This document shows positions 2,326-9,171 of a stretch of 64,000 bases of DNA, one piece after another. Below the pieces are notes generated by a model. The model did no database searches, was not told where the DNA came from, and saw only the letters and a list, made by a program, of their open reading frames with translations. Origin of the DNA: a virus. The stretch is from UHGV virus genome UHGV-0010228. One strand, written 5' to 3'. How positions within the stretch are numbered: position 1 is the stretch's first letter; every line of letters begins with the position of its first letter. The position numbers and the translations under genes are program-made.

Positions 2326-4394
2326 TTGAAAGGAGGAGCTGAAATGATTGATATTAGTATGGAAGCGGTTATTAATCCTGAACCAGAAGATGGATCAGAA
2401 CCAATTCCTATGCAAATTGAATTAATAACTGATGCTATGATCACTAAAGCTAAATTAAAACCGGTTACTAATCCGATCTCATTTGTTCGTGGATCAGAAC
2501 CAACTCCTGATGGAATATTTTCAGAAGAAATATTTGGTAGTGATACCGCTAGTAGATCTAGACAGTTTGCATATATAGATCTACATCAGAAATTTTTCCA
2601 ACCATATGTATATGAAGTAATAAAAACCCTTGATCGTAAAATCGATAAGGTTGCATCTGGTAAAGGATATTGGCACATCAATGGTAGAGGTGAATTGATT
2701 GAGATTAAAGATCCGAAAGATTCACGATATGATGAGATGGCTACTGGATTAAATTGGGTTATTGAAAATTTTGATAAGATTAAATTTAAGACATCAGATG
2801 CAATAACTCGACAGGATAAACTTAGGTTCCTTAAGAATATTTCGGATGAAGAAAAGTTTGTATCTAAATGGATCGTTATACCAGTTACTTATAGAAATTT
2901 TATTGAAAAGAATGGTAGAATGGCAGTAACTGATATAGATGATATTTATACAAAATTAATATCCTATACCAATGGTATAGGTAATGATCCATTTGATTAC
3001 ATGAATAATCAATTATTATATAATATCCAGATGGAATTAGTAAAACTCCGTAAGTTAGGCGGAGATCTTATTAGAGGTAAGCATGGTTTTATGCATAAAG
3101 CTATGCTAGGTAAATCTACAGATTTAGGAGTCAGAGATGTTATATCTCAGATGTCTCTAAATCATTGTGAACGTCCGGAGGATAATCCTGTGGATATATT
3201 TCATAGTGGAGTACCATTAAGTAAATGCCTAGTATTAGGATATAACTTTATACTGAAATGGTGCTTAGATTTCTTCGAAAATAATTTCAAAGATAAAAAA
3301 GAACTTATAGTTTTTAAAGAAAAAGATGGTGTAAGAACTGAAAAACAAAAAATACCTATAAAGGATCAAACTATAATTTATACTAAATCGTTTTTAGATA
3401 AAAAGATTAAGCAATATCAGAACACACCAGCTATAAGATTCGATCCTATCGTGTTATATACAATAGATGGGAATGAACTCCCATTAACATTTGTAGGGTC
3501 ATTCGGTTCTATTAATAGTAGGGATATTGATGCAGCATCAATATCTAGAAGAAATATGACATGGACAGATTTGTTTTATATGGCTGCAATGGATACAATT
3601 TCGGATAAATATATATATTCAACTAGATTCCCAATAACGAGTTATAGTTCAATATTTCCGTCACTTTGTACTCCATTAACAACTATAAAAACGATACCTG
3701 CAATAATAAATAATCGAGTATATCCGAATTATCCATATGTAGAATTAGATATTGATAAAGGTGATATAGTTACTAGATTTATAGATACATTATGCATCAG
3801 TGATTTATTCCTTGATGCAATAGGCGGCGACTGGACTGCCATCATGGTCGCCTACAGTAGTAATACTGTACAAGAAAAGTCAGGTGAACTCCTAACCAGA
3901 GGTGTCTATCAGATGATAGGCTAACGGTCGAAGTTAGATAAGTATGTATACATATCCTAGCCAGATATGGTCCTGTTATATTATAACAGTATATAACGAA
4001 TACGCTTCTTAAGAGAGTCTAAGGTCCAGTTTATATTGGATAGCTTTGAGAATACCGTGCCAAGACTTGATATTATTCAAGTAAGGTGTAGAGACTAATA
4101 GTAGAATATGAGATGGAAAAGCTCATATACGAAGTGCCAGACCACCCCCACTATTTTATATAATAGAGGGTGAATGAGATAGTCCACATAGAGTTTTCTC
4201 TCGAGAATCCTCGAAAGTAATGACGGCGATACGATGAGTAGTAAGTTAGTTTTTTCATTAGAAGCTAATGAAGAAGCTAGGGCACTTGCTGAATCATTAT
4301 CTAATTTTGTATCAGCAGACGGATCGTTAATTAGGAATGTAAAAAATGAAGCTTTCTTATGTTTCTATAATATGACCAGAACTGATAGAGCATA
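2326..4394 (+). CDS. multisubunit RNA polymerase beta-prime-like subunit, N-terminal fragment, interrupted by a group I intron (exon 1 about 2326-3823, exon 2 about 4222-4394)
   Basis: Exon 1 contains GKHGFMHKAMLGKSTDLGVRDVIS, which matches the beta-prime signature [22 protein letters not shown]. It ends FLDAIGGD. After a stop-filled region of about 400 nt, an in-frame stretch with no start codon or RBS encodes DGDTMSSKLVFSLEANEEARALAESLSNFVSADGSLIRNVKNEAFLCFYNMTRTD. That aligns with E. coli beta-prime [59 protein letters not shown]. Confidence 0.7.
3824..4221 (+). other. group I self-splicing intron (about 400 nt, no internal ORF or homing endonuclease) in the beta-prime-like gene
   Basis: The region has higher GC and no ORF. 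It contains agAGACUAAUAG (4091-4102; R-like element with the P7 5' strand GACUA) and GAGAUAGUCC (4175-4185; S-like element with the P7 3' strand UAGUC, as in Tetrahymena AAGAUAUAGUCGG). A P9-like hairpin tctcgag-aatc-ctcgaaa lies near the 3' end, and a G at 4221/4222 precedes exon 2. Exon junctions are uncertain by a few nt because ggcggcgac and gacggcgat flank the two ends. Confidence 0.6.
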
Positions 4395-4404
4395 GGAGGT
4401 TAAT

Positions 4405-4824
4405 ATGCATAATGATATTGAAGCTATGGAAGGGCTTATTAAAAAATTTAAAGAAAATAAGCAAATCCTTAAAGAGGCAAGAAAATATTATCGCAATAAA
4501 AATGATAAAACGATAATAAAAATGTTTATAGATGCCAATGGTGGACCAGATAATTATAATAAAACTCCACAGAAAATAATAAAAGCCTCAATTAGAAATC
4601 AATATATTATTGGTGGGGCAATGATTGCTGTTGCTGGAGCTGGAACGATGTTTATTTCTGATGTTGACTTTATTGACGTGTCCGGAATACCTGTGGGTGT
4701 TTTTATCTATGCATCACAAAAATTCTATTATCTAGTTCCTATTCGTGAGGGTAAGCGCGATAAAGCTAGATCATATACTCGAGATTCTATGATTACTTTT
4801 TTATATAATCATATGAATAATTAA
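4405..4824 (+). CDS. hypothetical protein with N-terminal MHNDIEAMEG|LIKKF leader and a Gly/Ala-rich transmembrane-like segment
   Basis: aggagg RBS. Shares the IEAMEGLI motif with ORFs 12864-13454 and 34708-35415. Confidence 0.55.
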   Translation: MHNDIEAMEGLIKKFKENKQILKEARKYYRNKNDKTIIKMFIDANGGPDNYNKTPQKIIKASIRNQYIIGGAMIAVAGAGTMFISDVDFIDVSGIPVGVFIYASQKFYYLVPIREGKRDKARSYTRDSMITFLYNHMNN

Positions 4825-7883: not shown

Positions 7884-8087
7884 ATGATTTTTACATTCAT
7901 TTCAAAATTATTAATTTTCGCAATGATGTGTATATTGACGATGATTAGTGTCTATTATATGTTTATAATATATGCTGATTGGGATGAATATGAAGATTCA
8001 ATGATATTGATGTATATTAAAATTGTGGGAGTATTTTTAATAACGATTGCTATACAAGTCTTCCTAGGAAGATATCTATTATCATAA
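7884..8087 (+). CDS. small membrane protein with two TM helices (holin/antiholin-like candidate)
   Basis: LLIFAMMCILTMISVYYMFII and IVGVFLITIAIQVFLG. Adjacent to the previous small membrane-protein gene. Confidence 0.4.
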   Translation: MIFTFISKLLIFAMMCILTMISVYYMFIIYADWDEYEDSMILMYIKIVGVFLITIAIQVFLGRYLLS

Positions 8088-8097
8088 GAGGGAAAAT

Positions 8098-9171
8098 ATG
8101 GACATACATTTCAATGGATATAAAGTTAAATATCCTTTCTTAAATTATGGTATGCAGAGTATTCGGCAATCACAAAATATAAGGTCAATAAATATATTTA
8201 TTGACCTTGATGATTTATTCCACACTTTGCACAGACCATTAATTAATAACGAATTTCAAGTTGCTGGTAAGAATGCTAGTAAGCAGTTTGTATCTAATAT
8301 ATTTAATATTGCTGGTCACTATAGAAATTGGGCAATTAAAGAACATCTAATCCCAACAGTATGGCTATTTTATACATCATCTAAAAAGACATTTAAAAAT
8401 TCTCTATATGTACCATCATATAGAGAAAGATTTTTAGATATCAATTCGGATCTTAATACAAATACGTATTATATTAATGCTGCAATAAAAGAATCGTATA
8501 GTATAATGCATGTTATATCAAAATATATACCAGGAGTATATATTATAGACTCTAAATACTTAGAACCAAGTATAATCCCTAATGTAATAGTTAATTTAGG
8601 ACATAATAAAGATTGGAATCTTGTAGTATCCAGAGATATCTATATGCTACAATATTCATATATGGATAAAACAACTATGGTATCACCTAAGGGTGATAAT
8701 TCTATATTTATAAATAAAGGAAATTTATGGGATTATATAATTGGTAGAGAAAGAGTTTATAAAGATGATATTCCACATATATATTACAATCCAGAATTAT
8801 TTATATATGCAAAAGCTCTTATTGGAGATAAATATAGATCAATCCCAAGATTAAAGAAAATAGGATGGAAAACCTTATTTAATTATCTAAATAAAGCTAT
8901 AGAAGATTCTGAAATCCCTTTAGATCTACAAATAGAGAAACTTGTAGATTTATTAAACTCTAAGAAAGTAAATATAGAAGAATATAATTCAAATTTATAT
9001 TGCAGCAATGTTGAATTACAAACTGATAGTTTATTAGAATCAGATAAGAATATTATATTAGATCAGATTGAAGATATGGAGGATTATATCGCACTGAATA
9101 ATGTGAATAATTCTATATTTACAAGATTTCCAATTAATCTAAATTTCTTGTGTAATAAGGTGGTGATATAA
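8098..9171 (+). CDS. putative 5'-3' exonuclease / flap endonuclease (FEN, T4 RNase H / T5 D15 family)
   Basis: N-terminal INIFIDLDDLFH resembles the FEN LLLVDGSNLLYR block. The C-terminal ALIGDKYRSIPRLKKIGWKTLFNYL resembles the H3TH motif [25 protein letters not shown]. Confidence 0.45.
   Translation: MDIHFNGYKVKYPFLNYGMQSIRQSQNIRSINIFIDLDDLFHTLHRPLINNEFQVAGKNASKQFVSNIFNIAGHYRNWAIKEHLIPTVWLFYTSSKKTFKNSLYVPSYRERFLDINSDLNTNTYYINAAIKESYSIMHVISKYIPGVYIIDSKYLEPSIIPNVIVNLGHNKDWNLVVSRDIYMLQYSYMDKTTMVSPKGDNSIFINKGNLWDYIIGRERVYKDDIPHIYYNPELFIYAKALIGDKYRSIPRLKKIGWKTLFNYLNKAIEDSEIPLDLQIEKLVDLLNSKKVNIEEYNSNLYCSNVELQTDSLLESDKNIILDQIEDMEDYIALNNVNNSIFTRFPINLNFLCNKVVI

What the first reader, a model, noticed from the sequence alone, without database searches (positions are those of the whole stretch)
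3824..4221. Group I intron splitting the RNA polymerase beta-prime-like gene near its catalytic DxDGD motif
Exon 1 ends ...FLDAI(GGD), and exon 2 (no ATG, no RBS, same frame) starts (D)GDTMSSKLVFSLEANEEARALAESL.... Together they recreate the beta-prime [29 protein letters not shown] block. The intervening region of about 400 nt has no ORF. It carries R-like (agAGACUAAUAG) and S-like (GAGAUAGUCC) elements that form a GACUA/UAGUC P7 pairing. It also has a P9-like hairpin and a terminal G. Multisubunit-RNAP genes are a hallmark of phiKZ/AR9-type jumbo phages. An intron at the active site would couple RNAP production to splicing. The beta-prime fragment stops about 57 aa after the motif, consistent with the split subunits of these phages.
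Basis: partly seen in the sequence, partly recalled or inferred. Interest (0 to 1): 0.8.

Follow-up and report, generated by a model that had tools for sequence, protein, structure and literature searches.

The report
Group I intron in phage RNA-polymerase gene
A 387-base self-splicing (group I) intron interrupts the catalytic Asp motif of a jumbo phage's virion RNA polymerase beta-prime gene, a known arrangement in AR9-like phages, but this copy ends in A instead of the G that all such introns are thought to need.

Summary
The finding is real. Window 2344-3832 and 4220-4395 are two exons of the N-terminal beta-prime subunit of an AR9-type jumbo-phage RNA polymerase. The best match is AR9 g145, the virion enzyme. 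Uninterrupted homologues read LDAIGGD-Y/F-DGDT.S.K, so the junction is GAC U|AU GAC GGC GAU and the intron is 3833-4219 (387 nt, no ORF).

It folds as a group I intron: P1 with a U.G pair at the splice site, P2-P9, the P3/P7 pseudoknot, a canonical G-binding pair and a strong P10. Twelve related introns back this fold: 90% of cells pair, against 33-41% in slid controls, and 32 pairs carry compensatory changes.

Rfam finds nothing in the window, but that is a false negative. Rfam scores four family members at 60-72 bits.

The same ribozyme family sits at the same nucleotide in at least four diverged beta-prime gene lineages. AR9 g145 is already annotated with an intron in the same DYDGD motif. 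This is therefore a new member of a known kind.

One anomaly remains. The frame-restoring junction leaves A4219 as the last intron base, while all seven family members at this site end in G. Three independent assemblies agree on the A.

The parts
2344..3832 (+). Exon 1 of the N-terminal beta-prime gene (virion RNA polymerase type). It ends ...GGC GGC GAC U, that is ...LDAIGGD plus the first base of the Tyr codon.
   Evidence: PHROG 2986 profile positions 6-484. P0001 has the same ORF at 98% identity starting at this ATG. AR9 g145 exons 1-2 align to it.
3826..3852 (+). P1: exon GGCGACU (3826-3832) pairs with the guide sequence GGUCGCC (3846-3852). U3832.G3846 is the wobble pair at the 5' splice site. 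The loop is 3833-3845.
   Evidence: Read from the sequence. The U.G pair is present in 12 of 12 related introns, and 3 of the 7 P1 pairs show compensatory changes.
3833..4219 (+). Group I intron, 387 nt, with no ORF.
   Evidence: Boundaries come from uninterrupted homologues (GGD-Y-DGD) and from close relatives with the junction U|AU GAU. Fold and covariation. ORF scan.
3838..3845 (+). 5' part of the internal guide sequence, which forms P10 with exon 2 bases 4220-4227.
   Evidence: 8 of 9 pairs form in this register, against 5 of 10 and 1 of 10 for the registers of G4222 and G4217. P10 of 7-9 bp is conserved in 8 relatives. G3838 and C4227 change together relative to L090.
3853..3870 (+). P2 hairpin: UACAGUA / UACUGUA with a GUAA loop.
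   Evidence: 100% of cells pair and 5 of 7 pairs have compensatory changes.
3879..3884 (+). P3 5' strand (GUCAGG). It pairs with 4137-4142 (CCAGAC) and is pseudoknotted with P7.
   Evidence: 4 of 6 pairs have compensatory changes. The A3882.A4139 mismatch is in the window and its close relative L090.
3889..3921 (+). Two small hairpins inserted between P3 and P4: 3889-91/3899-3901 and 3904-09/3916-21.
   Evidence: Both pair in 100% of cells, with 2 of 3 and 4 of 6 pairs compensatory. Minimal family members such as L147 lack them and go straight from P3 to UGAAA-P4.
3924..4058 (+). P4 (3924-28 / 4054-58) encloses P5 (3930-33 / 4005-08) and a variable P5 extension that includes hairpin 4025-30/4035-40.
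   Evidence: P4 is invariant. P5 has 2 compensatory pairs and the 4025-30/4035-40 hairpin has 5. The minimum-free-energy fold recovers P4 and the 4025-30/4035-40 hairpin.
4059..4087 (+). P6 (4059-61 / 4085-87) and P6a (4065-70 / 4077-82).
   Evidence: C4061-G4085 changes to U-A in 5 sequences and to G-C in 1. P6a G4069-C4078 changes to A-U in L090.
4091..4097 (+). P7 5' strand: G4091, bulged A4092, then GACUA. G4093-C4184 is the guanosine-binding pair.
   Evidence: Invariant in all 12 sequences. The layout matches Tetrahymena C262/A263/G264:C311 (from my own knowledge).
4106..4128 (+). Hairpin between P7 and the P3 3' strand. It corresponds to P7.2; P7.1 is absent here.
   Evidence: 4 pairs are compensatory. 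Most family members have two hairpins separated by GUAG(G).
4137..4142 (+). P3 3' strand (CCAGAC).
4143..4172 (+). P8: 4143-47/4168-72 and 4151-55/4162-66.
   Evidence: Minimum-free-energy fold. A4144-U4171 changes to G-C in L090. The multi-sequence alignment of this helix is poor, with only 52% of cells paired.
4180..4185 (+). P7 3' strand (UAGUCC).
   Evidence: Invariant.
4190..4213 (+). P9 (4190-93/4198-4201) and P9.1 (4202-05/4210-13) hairpins. This 3' tail is unrelated to the tail of the 90%-identical relatives.
   Evidence: Read from the sequence. The similarity with L090 ends at about 4196.
4219..4219 (+). Last intron nucleotide, the omega position. It is A, not G.
   Evidence: Identical in the window, L088 and L089. 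It is G in L090-L099, L006, L171, L183, L200, L214 and L229.
4220..4395 (+). Exon 2: AU GAC GGC GAU ACG..., that is (Y)DGDTMSSKLVF...TDRA, with the stop at 4393-4395.
   Evidence: PHROG 2986 profile positions 486-535. P0121 is 98% identical. AR9 g145 exon 3 aligns to it.

Best explanation
Window 3833-4219 is an ORF-less group I intron. It belongs to a widespread phage ribozyme family that resembles subgroup IA2. It is inserted after the first base of the Tyr codon in the GGD-Y-DGD catalytic loop of the N-terminal beta-prime subunit of an AR9-type jumbo-phage RNA polymerase. The best AR9 match is g145, annotated as the virion enzyme.

Inferred mechanism: the primary transcript folds. The guide sequence 3846-3852 pairs with exon 1 to form P1. 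A free guanosine bound at G4093-C4184 attacks after U3832. The neighbouring guide bases 3838-3845 then pair with exon 2 (P10), and U3832 is joined to A4220. This gives GAC UAU GAC GGC GAU, the DYDGD motif.

Shown here: the exon homology, the junction, the fold and its covariation, and the family relationships. Inferred: the chemistry. In this allele it is also an inference that the second step works at all, because the 3'-terminal base is A4219 rather than the usual G.
For: 1. Exons. Consecutive hits to one PHROG profile. The joined protein hits AR9 N-terminal beta-prime and the bacterial beta-prime NADFDGD region. More than 60 uninterrupted homologues read GGD[YF]DGD.
2. Junction. Close relatives L090-L099 carry the same intron (92% identity over 364 nt) and end ...CAUAG|AUGAUGGAGAU.
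3. Fold. 65 pairs in 12 helices were tested on 12 sequences. 90.0% of cells pair, against 33-41% when the partner is slid. 32 pairs change on both sides, against 6-17. The covariation score is 0.395 against at most 0.109. None of 500 shuffles reaches the observed values.
4. Window against L090: none of the 37 differing alignment columns disrupts a helix, and several are compensatory.
5. Family. The core motif GUGUAGAGACUA-N25-55-CGAAGYGC occurs in more than 120 IMG/VR contigs. Rfam RF00028 scores members L191 (71.9 bits), L147 and L175 (62.3 bits each) and L165 (60.6 bits), all above its 50-bit threshold. The window intron has blastn similarity to introns in Machias nrdE, Enterococcus EF1 DNA polymerase III and Carnobacterium cd2 terminase.
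6. The same ribozyme sits at the same phosphodiester in other beta-prime lineages..GMGAD| (L183, L200, L214)..GLGGD| (L171) and ..PMNAD|F-DGD (L229).
7. P10 of 7-9 bp is in register in all of these, and 8 of 9 pairs form in the window.
8. The joined ORF is under purifying selection: 107 synonymous against 10 non-synonymous codon differences versus L091.
Against: - There is no Rfam hit in the window, even at E<=10.
- The terminal nucleotide in the required register is A4219, while the G-binding pair is the canonical G-C. From established ribozyme biochemistry (Tetrahymena G414A; Michel 1989; Been and Perrotta 1991; my own knowledge), such a combination should be strongly impaired in exon ligation.
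- No spliced transcript or intron-less close allele was found in the protein collection.
- Only one hairpin lies between P7 and P3', where IA2 introns have two.
Confidence: 0.9

Rival explanations
1. It is a group I intron, but this allele is defective in the second step. With A at the terminal position and a canonical G-binding site, exon ligation either fails or uses a nearby G. G4222 would give GGD-Y-GD, with one catalytic Asp deleted. G4217 would give a 2-nt insertion, a frameshift and a stop. The virion beta-prime subunit of this lineage would then be inactive or made only in traces.
For: - The terminal G is described as universally conserved (PMC9223047).
- All 7 family members at this site, and 14 of the 15 distinct interrupted viral-contig loci, end in G.
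- The G-binding pair is unchanged.
- The 3' tail of the window intron is unrelated to that of its 90%-identical relatives. It looks like the product of a deletion or replacement that could have damaged the end.
Against: - The A allele is identical in three independent assemblies that differ by 0.2-0.3% elsewhere. The lineage-specific neighbouring gene is on 14 contigs, four of them 0.2-1 Mb. So the lineage circulates.
- The guide base G3838 and exon base C4227 changed together, keeping P10 in the A4220 register.
- The exon 2 differences next to the junction are all synonymous in the DGD frame.
- The whole gene shows 107 synonymous against 10 non-synonymous differences.
- The gene's AR9 counterpart is annotated as a virion RNA polymerase subunit, an enzyme expected to be essential (my own knowledge).
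Confidence: 0.4
2. The gene is not spliced. It is a 'gene in pieces': the two halves are translated separately and assemble, as with the Aeh1 nrdA gene split by a homing endonuclease.
For: - Many homologous ORFs stop right after GGD.
- In L100/L101 the downstream piece is preceded by GGUGAU plus AUG and a reverse-strand GIY-YIG gene.
Against: - In the window, the exon 2 frame is open only from 4192 and has no ATG, GTG or TTG before the DGD codons. The first ATG, at 4234, lies after DGDT.
- A split would separate the first catalytic Asp from the other two.
- The intervening RNA has a fully conserved, covarying ribozyme fold.
Confidence: 0.02
3. The insert is another kind of element: an intein, a group II intron or an insertion sequence.
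For: None specific.
Against: - It has no ORF and stop codons lie in the exon frame, which rules out an intein.
- At 387 nt it has group I P/Q/R/S-type core sequences and no group II domains.
- Rfam shows nothing else.
Confidence: 0.01

Closest known systems
Bacillus phage AR9 g145 (virion RNA polymerase beta-prime, N-terminal part), second group I intron, carrying the Hef-like homing endonuclease g146 (GenBank KU878088 annotation; Lavysh et al. 2016)
   Same: The gene is orthologous (31.6% identity, E 7e-48) and the interrupted motif is the same. AR9 reads GGDYD|...|GDTVSLRG, with a U before the 5' splice site and a terminal G.
   Different: The AR9 intron sits 5 nt further downstream, after the second Asp codon. 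It is about 1.9 kb, encodes an endonuclease, and has the other core type (CAACGACUAUCG / GAUAUAGUCU). The window intron is 387 nt, has no ORF and ends in A.
Phage group I introns resembling subgroup IA2: Staphylococcus phage Machias nrdE, Enterococcus phage EF1 DNA polymerase III alpha, Carnobacterium cd2 terminase. Twort orf142-I2 and T4 td are the textbook IA2 examples (from my own knowledge).
   Same: They share core sequence: 78-85% identity over 44-70 nt covering the P5 3' strand to P7 5' strand part of the core, window 3996-4101. They sit in split essential genes. One or two hairpins lie between P7 and P3'.
   Different: The host genes differ. The window family also has two hairpins inserted between P3 and P4 and a large P5 extension. 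P7.1 is missing in the window copy.
PhiPA3 gp210 intron in an RNA polymerase beta-subunit gene (Birkholz et al., Science 2024, PMC11620839)
   Same: It is a putative group I intron placed at conserved catalytic-region residues of a jumbo-phage multisubunit RNA polymerase gene.
   Different: It lies in the beta subunit, not beta-prime, in a Pseudomonas nucleus-forming phage, and carries an HNH endonuclease with a shown role in phage competition. The window intron has no endonuclease.
Tetrahymena intron with terminal G414A, alone or combined with G264A:C311U (Michel et al. 1989; Been and Perrotta 1991; from my own knowledge)
   Same: It is the only experimental analogue of an intron with a terminal A.
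   Different: In that system the terminal A works only when the binding pair is changed to A-U. Here the pair is still G-C.

Membership tests
Group I intron | P1 helix between the 5' exon end and an internal guide sequence, with a U.G wobble at the splice site | tested here: met
   3826-3832 pairs with 3846-3852, with U3832.G3846. The U.G pair is present in 12 of 12 relatives, and P1 has 3 compensatory pairs.
Group I intron | Conserved core: P3-P8 and P4-P6 domains with the P3/P7 pseudoknot, supported by covariation | tested here: met
   90% of cells pair against 33-41% in slid controls. 32 pairs change on both sides, and 0 of 500 shuffles reach the observed values.
Group I intron | Guanosine-binding site in P7: a bulged base followed by a G-C pair | tested here: met
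   G4091, bulged A4092, then G4093-C4184. P7 is invariant in the family.
Group I intron | 3'-terminal guanosine immediately before exon 2 | tested here: not met
   The frame-restoring and P10-defined junction leaves A4219 as the last base. Relatives have G.
Group I intron | P10 pairing between the guide sequence and the start of exon 2 | tested here: met
   4220-4228 pairs with 3837-3845 at 8 of 9 positions. P10 is conserved in 8 relatives and follows their codon choice.
Group I intron | Match to the Rfam Intron_gpI covariance model (RF00028) | tested here: not met
   No hit at the gathering threshold or at E<=10. Family members L191, L147, L175 and L165 score 60-72 bits. The model also misses the annotated Machias and EF1 introns.
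Group I intron | GTP-dependent self-splicing | not testable with these tools
   Needs in vitro transcription and splicing, or RNA from infected cells.
Subgroup IA2 | P7.1 and P7.2 hairpins between P7 and the P3 3' strand | tested here: inconclusive
   The window has one hairpin (4106-4128). L010 and most of the 120 family loci have two, separated by GUAG(G). The definition of the subgroup is from memory.
Mobile intron with homing endonuclease | An endonuclease ORF inside the intron | tested here: not met
   The largest internal ORF is 38 aa. Relatives carry a GIY-YIG-type gene: an ORF in P6 of L010 (read from the sequence), an ORF on the reverse strand after the core of L214 (read from the sequence), and reverse-strand ORFs with Pfam GIY-YIG hits in L232, L235 and L100.
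Jumbo-phage multisubunit RNA polymerase, N-terminal beta-prime subunit (AR9 g145 type) | Double-psi beta-barrel region with the DxDGD metal-binding motif, and homology to AR9 and bacterial beta-prime | tested here: met
   Only after joining the exons: DYDGD. PDB 7S00/7S01 chain d, E 3.5e-10. E. coli beta-prime residues 452-515. PHROG 2986, E 1.6e-66. tblastn to AR9 g145.
Intein | An in-frame protein-coding insert with splicing motifs | tested here: not met
   The exon frame hits a stop at 3922-3924 and there is no ORF.

The most novel reading that the evidence does not exclude
This is a natural group I intron that completes exon ligation with a 3'-terminal adenosine while keeping a canonical G-C guanosine-binding pair. 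Correct ligation would rely on its unusually long P10, either at full efficiency or as a built-in throttle on a low-copy virion enzyme. Two further apparent cases support this reading. L072 reads GAC UUU|...UCCGAA|GAU GGG. L100/L101 read ..GGGGAA|AUGAUGGGG. All three show G-N-A directly before exon 2. The terminal-G rule would then not be absolute.
Probability: 0.35. Interest if true: 0.75.

Novelty: new member of a known kind. Interest (0 to 1): 0.42.

Why it matters
- **Annotation.** The beta-prime gene of this gut jumbo phage and of many metagenomic relatives is mis-called as a truncated ORF plus a 53-aa orphan. Rfam-based intron screens will miss it.
- **Phage biology.** The 27 nt that encode GGD(Y/F)DGD are a crowded landing site. 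At least nine different insertion points, two ribozyme types and several endonuclease arrangements are seen across jumbo-phage beta-prime genes. This makes a good natural system for studying homing-site competition.
- **Ribozyme chemistry.** If the terminal-A allele splices correctly, it would be a natural exception to a rule treated as universal.

Tried and rejected
- **Rfam.** Gathering threshold on the whole window and E<=10 on 3700-4350: only noise.
- **blastn of the gene against GenBank phages.** No match.
- **The search for related loci with the single protein.** Nothing. The alignment-based query worked.
- **Metagenome scan for the window's 3' junction with N at the terminal position.** Ten hits, all unrelated GC-rich genes.
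- **Exact look-up of the 53-aa exon 2 ORF.** Not on record.
- **Junction-spanning protein query, to catch spliced transcripts or intron-less close alleles.** None found.
- **An alternative P3 (GGC 3919-21 with GCC 4136-38).** Rejected because those bases are in a hairpin with compensatory changes, and the 3879-84/4137-42 pairing covaries.
- **All in-frame combinations of a U-ending 5' site with a G-ending 3' site.** Enumerated by hand. None yields DxDGD.
- **Other ideas considered and dismissed for lack of any support.** Shifted boundaries, recoding, RNA editing, modified bases and a second gene copy. tblastn finds one copy in the window.
- **Literature search for natural terminal-A introns.** Nothing found.
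Full report
**What is in the sequence.** ORF 2326..3924 reads ...CISDLFLDAIGGD and then runs on for 30 codons to a stop. A second frame, open only from 4192, reads ...ESNDGDTMSSKLVFSLEANEEARALAESL... and stops at 4393-4395. Its first start codon (ATG 4234) lies after the DGDT codons. Between the two there is no ORF longer than 38 aa apart from the exon 1 read-through. G+C rises from about 0.25-0.30 in the flanks to 0.35-0.46 across 3800-4250.

**What the gene is.**
- The two pieces match one phage protein family back to back: PHROG 2986, profile positions 6-484 and 486-535 of 539.
- The joined protein matches the N-terminal beta-prime subunit of the AR9 non-virion RNA polymerase (PDB 7S00/7S01 chain d, E 3.5e-10). 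Around the junction it also matches bacterial beta-prime, at E. coli residues 452-515, the NADFDGD region.
- By tblastn the closest cultured relatives are Listeria phage LPJP1, Bacillus phages Goe21, BpSp, AR9 and PBS1, and the Staphylococcus jumbo phages, at 32-35% identity. The AR9 match is g145, annotated as the virion RNA polymerase beta-prime N-terminus.
- The rest of the window carries a major head protein, a large terminase and a tail sheath.
- Homologous contigs are 200-290 kb long.
- A near-identical contig comes from a Hadza gut metagenome.

**Where the junction is.** More than 60 uninterrupted homologues read LDAIGGD-(Y/F)-DGD(T/Q/M).S.K. The only way to obtain D-x-DGD from the window is GAC U (ending at 3832) plus AU GAC GGC GAU (from 4220). 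The intron is therefore 3833-4219, 387 nt. Ten contigs of a 90%-identical phage (L090-L099) carry the same intron, 92% identical over its first 364 nt. They end ...CAUAG|AUGAUGGAGAU, which confirms the U|AU junction.

**Anatomy of the intron (window coordinates).**
- P1: 3826-32 with 3846-52, with the U3832.G3846 wobble pair.
- P2: 3853-59 with 3864-70, GUAA loop.
- P3: 3879-84 with 4137-42.
- Two extra hairpins between P3 and P4: 3889-91/3899-3901 and 3904-09/3916-21.
- P4: 3924-28 with 4054-58.
- P5: 3930-33 with 4005-08, plus a long extension.
- P6 and P6a: 4059-61/4085-87 and 4065-70/4077-82.
- P7: G4091, bulged A4092, then 4093-97 with 4180-85. G4093-C4184 is the guanosine-binding pair.
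- One hairpin between P7 and the P3 3' strand: 4106-12/4122-28.
- P8: 4143-72.
- P9 and P9.1: 4190-4201 and 4202-4213.
- P10: 4220-4227 with 3838-3845.

An unconstrained energy fold recovers most of the nested helices, with a z-score of -2.7.

**Comparative test.** I aligned twelve related introns (A4) and counted the named structure of 65 pairs, pseudoknot included.
- 90.0% of cells form standard pairs, against 33-41% when the 3' partner is slid by 1-3 columns.
- 32 pairs change on both sides, against 6-17 in the slid controls.
- The covariation score is 0.395, against at most 0.109.
- No shuffle out of 500 reaches any observed value.
- P4 and P7 are invariant, as expected for the catalytic core. 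The splice-site U.G pair is present in all twelve sequences.
- The window and L090 differ at 37 alignment columns in the intron. None breaks a helix, and several are compensatory, for example G4069-C4078 to A-U and A4144-U4171 to G-C.

**The ribozyme family.**
- Most members have two hairpins between P7 and P3', separated by GUAG(G). I recall this as the subgroup IA2 hallmark. The window copy has only the second hairpin.
- Rfam's Intron_gpI model does not see the window intron. It also misses the annotated introns of Machias nrdE and EF1 DNA polymerase.
- The same model scores family members L191 (71.9 bits), L147 and L175 (62.3 bits each) and L165 (60.6 bits), all above its 50-bit threshold. 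L191 has the same two hairpins between P3 and P4 as the window.
- The Rfam negative is therefore a sensitivity failure, not evidence against the intron.
- The window intron also shows direct blastn similarity to introns that split Machias nrdE, EF1 DNA polymerase III alpha and Carnobacterium cd2 terminase.

**Site specificity and the hotspot.**
- The same ribozyme type sits after the same nucleotide (GAY U|) in other, diverged beta-prime lineages..HLDGMGAD| (L183, L200, L214)..GLGGD| (L171) and ..PMNAD|F-DGDL (L229). In each it has 7-9 bp of P10 that follows the local codon choice.
- Across 80 viral contigs and other loci, the 27 nt encoding GGD(Y/F)DGD carry introns at nine or more different phosphodiesters and of two ribozyme types.
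- Endonucleases vary. L010 has a GIY-YIG gene in P6. L214, L232, L235, L237 and L100 have a 288-311 aa ORF on the opposite strand between the core and the 3' splice site, confirmed as GIY-YIG by Pfam in L232, L235 (weak hit) and L100. The window, L090, L006 and L229 have none.

**What was already known.**
- GenBank annotates AR9 g145 as a three-exon gene with two group I introns. I located its second intron inside the same motif: GGDYD|...|GDTVSLRG, with U at the 5' site and a terminal G.
- Machias is annotated likewise.
- PhiPA3 carries a putative endonuclease-bearing group I intron in an RNA polymerase beta-subunit gene.

**The anomaly.**
- In the junction register, the last intron base is A4219 (...CUCGAAAGUA|AUGACGGCGAU). 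The sequence is identical in the window, L088 (ERR7738187) and L089 (Hadza). These differ from each other by 0.2-0.3% elsewhere.
- All seven other family members at this phosphodiester end in G. So do L232, L235, L237 and AR9.
- P10 singles out 4219|4220. Eight of 9 pairs form there, against 5 of 10 for the register of G4222 and 1 of 10 for G4217.
- Guide base G3838 (A in L090) pairs with C4227 (A in L090), a compensatory change.
- Using G4222 would give GGDYGD, which lacks a catalytic Asp. Using G4217 adds two bases and runs into a stop. No combination of a U-ending 5' site and a G-ending 3' site yields DxDGD.
- The G-binding pair is the ordinary G-C, the same as in the relatives that end in G.
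- The gene is under strong purifying selection: 107 synonymous against 10 non-synonymous codon differences versus L091.
- The lineage is found on at least 14 contigs.
- The 3' tail of the window intron (from about 4197) is unrelated to that of L090 and appears to have been replaced or created by a deletion.
- Two more apparent terminal-A cases turned up. L072 reads GAC UUU|...UCCGAA|GAU GGG GAC, with 6 bp of P10 in register. L100/L101 read ..GGGGAA|AUGAUGGGG. All three read G-N-A before exon 2.
- I found no explanation and no literature precedent.

**Mechanism and rivals.** The best-supported account is ordinary group I self-splicing that restores DYDGD. I put confidence in the intron identity at about 0.9. 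Whether this allele ligates correctly is open. I give about 0.35-0.45 to functional ligation with a terminal A, which may be inefficient but sufficient for a low-copy virion enzyme. I give about 0.4 to a second-step-defective or mis-splicing allele. Separate translation of the two halves, an intein and other elements are effectively excluded.

**Verdict.** This is a correctly spotted, well-supported group I intron in a host gene and motif where such introns are already annotated. It is a new member of a known kind and of moderate interest. The terminal-A junction and the density of independent insertions in the catalytic-loop codons raise that interest somewhat.

Noticed in passing
Loci L008-L087, L232-L237, L241 (AR9); window 3823-3832 and 4220-4230: The 27 nt that encode GGD(Y/F)DGD in jumbo-phage N-terminal beta-prime genes carry introns at nine or more different phosphodiesters. 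Two unrelated ribozyme core types are involved (GUGUAGAGACUA... and CAACGACUAUCG...). It is an unusually dense homing hotspot.
   Followed up: partly
L072:3929-5294 and L100:607-741 (also L101): Two further beta-prime introns seem to end in A rather than G when the junction is set by reading frame and P10: L072 ..UCCGAA|GAUGGGG and L100 ..GGGGAA|AUGAUGGGG. Together with the window, all three read G-N-A before exon 2.
   Followed up: partly
L214:4190-5056(-), L232:4449-5318(-), L235:4446-5321(-), L237:4426-5361(-), L100:1-606(-): Relatives of the window intron carry a 288-311 aa ORF on the strand opposite to the host gene, between the ribozyme core and the 3' splice site. Pfam confirms it as a GIY-YIG endonuclease in L232, L235 (weak hit) and L100. 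This is an unusual orientation for an intron-borne endonuclease.
   Followed up: partly
window 4405-4824: This 139-aa ORF has no family match. It lies between exon 2 and the next conserved gene and is absent from the 90%-identical relatives L090-L099, where exon 2 is followed directly by the 121-aa gene. It looks like a lineage-specific insertion right next to the intron.
   Followed up: no
L100:694-741: A degenerate copy of the start of exon 2 (AAUGAAUGGUGAUAC) lies about 35 nt upstream of the real exon 2 start (AAUGAUGGGGAUAC). It may be a remnant of a homing or repair event.
   Followed up: no
window 3889-3921; also L191, L136, L207, L215: Many members of this ribozyme family have two small covarying hairpins inserted between P3 and P4 (GGUGAAC-hairpin-GGUGU-hairpin-GCUAACGG). 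Minimal members such as L147 lack them. I could not place this feature in a named subgroup.
   Followed up: partly
P0005, P0010, P0012 and other homologues of 940-980 aa; L232:5563-, L214:5197-: In some relatives the N-terminal beta-prime part is fused to, or immediately followed by, a further ~410-460 aa beta-prime segment. In the window the gene ends 57 codons after the start of the DGD codons. The position of the subunit split therefore varies within this phage group.
   Followed up: no
L207:7552-7785(-) and about 7943-8200(-); L147 and L175 (two Rfam hits each): Several viral contigs carry two group I introns within a few hundred bases of each other, sometimes of different core types.
   Followed up: no
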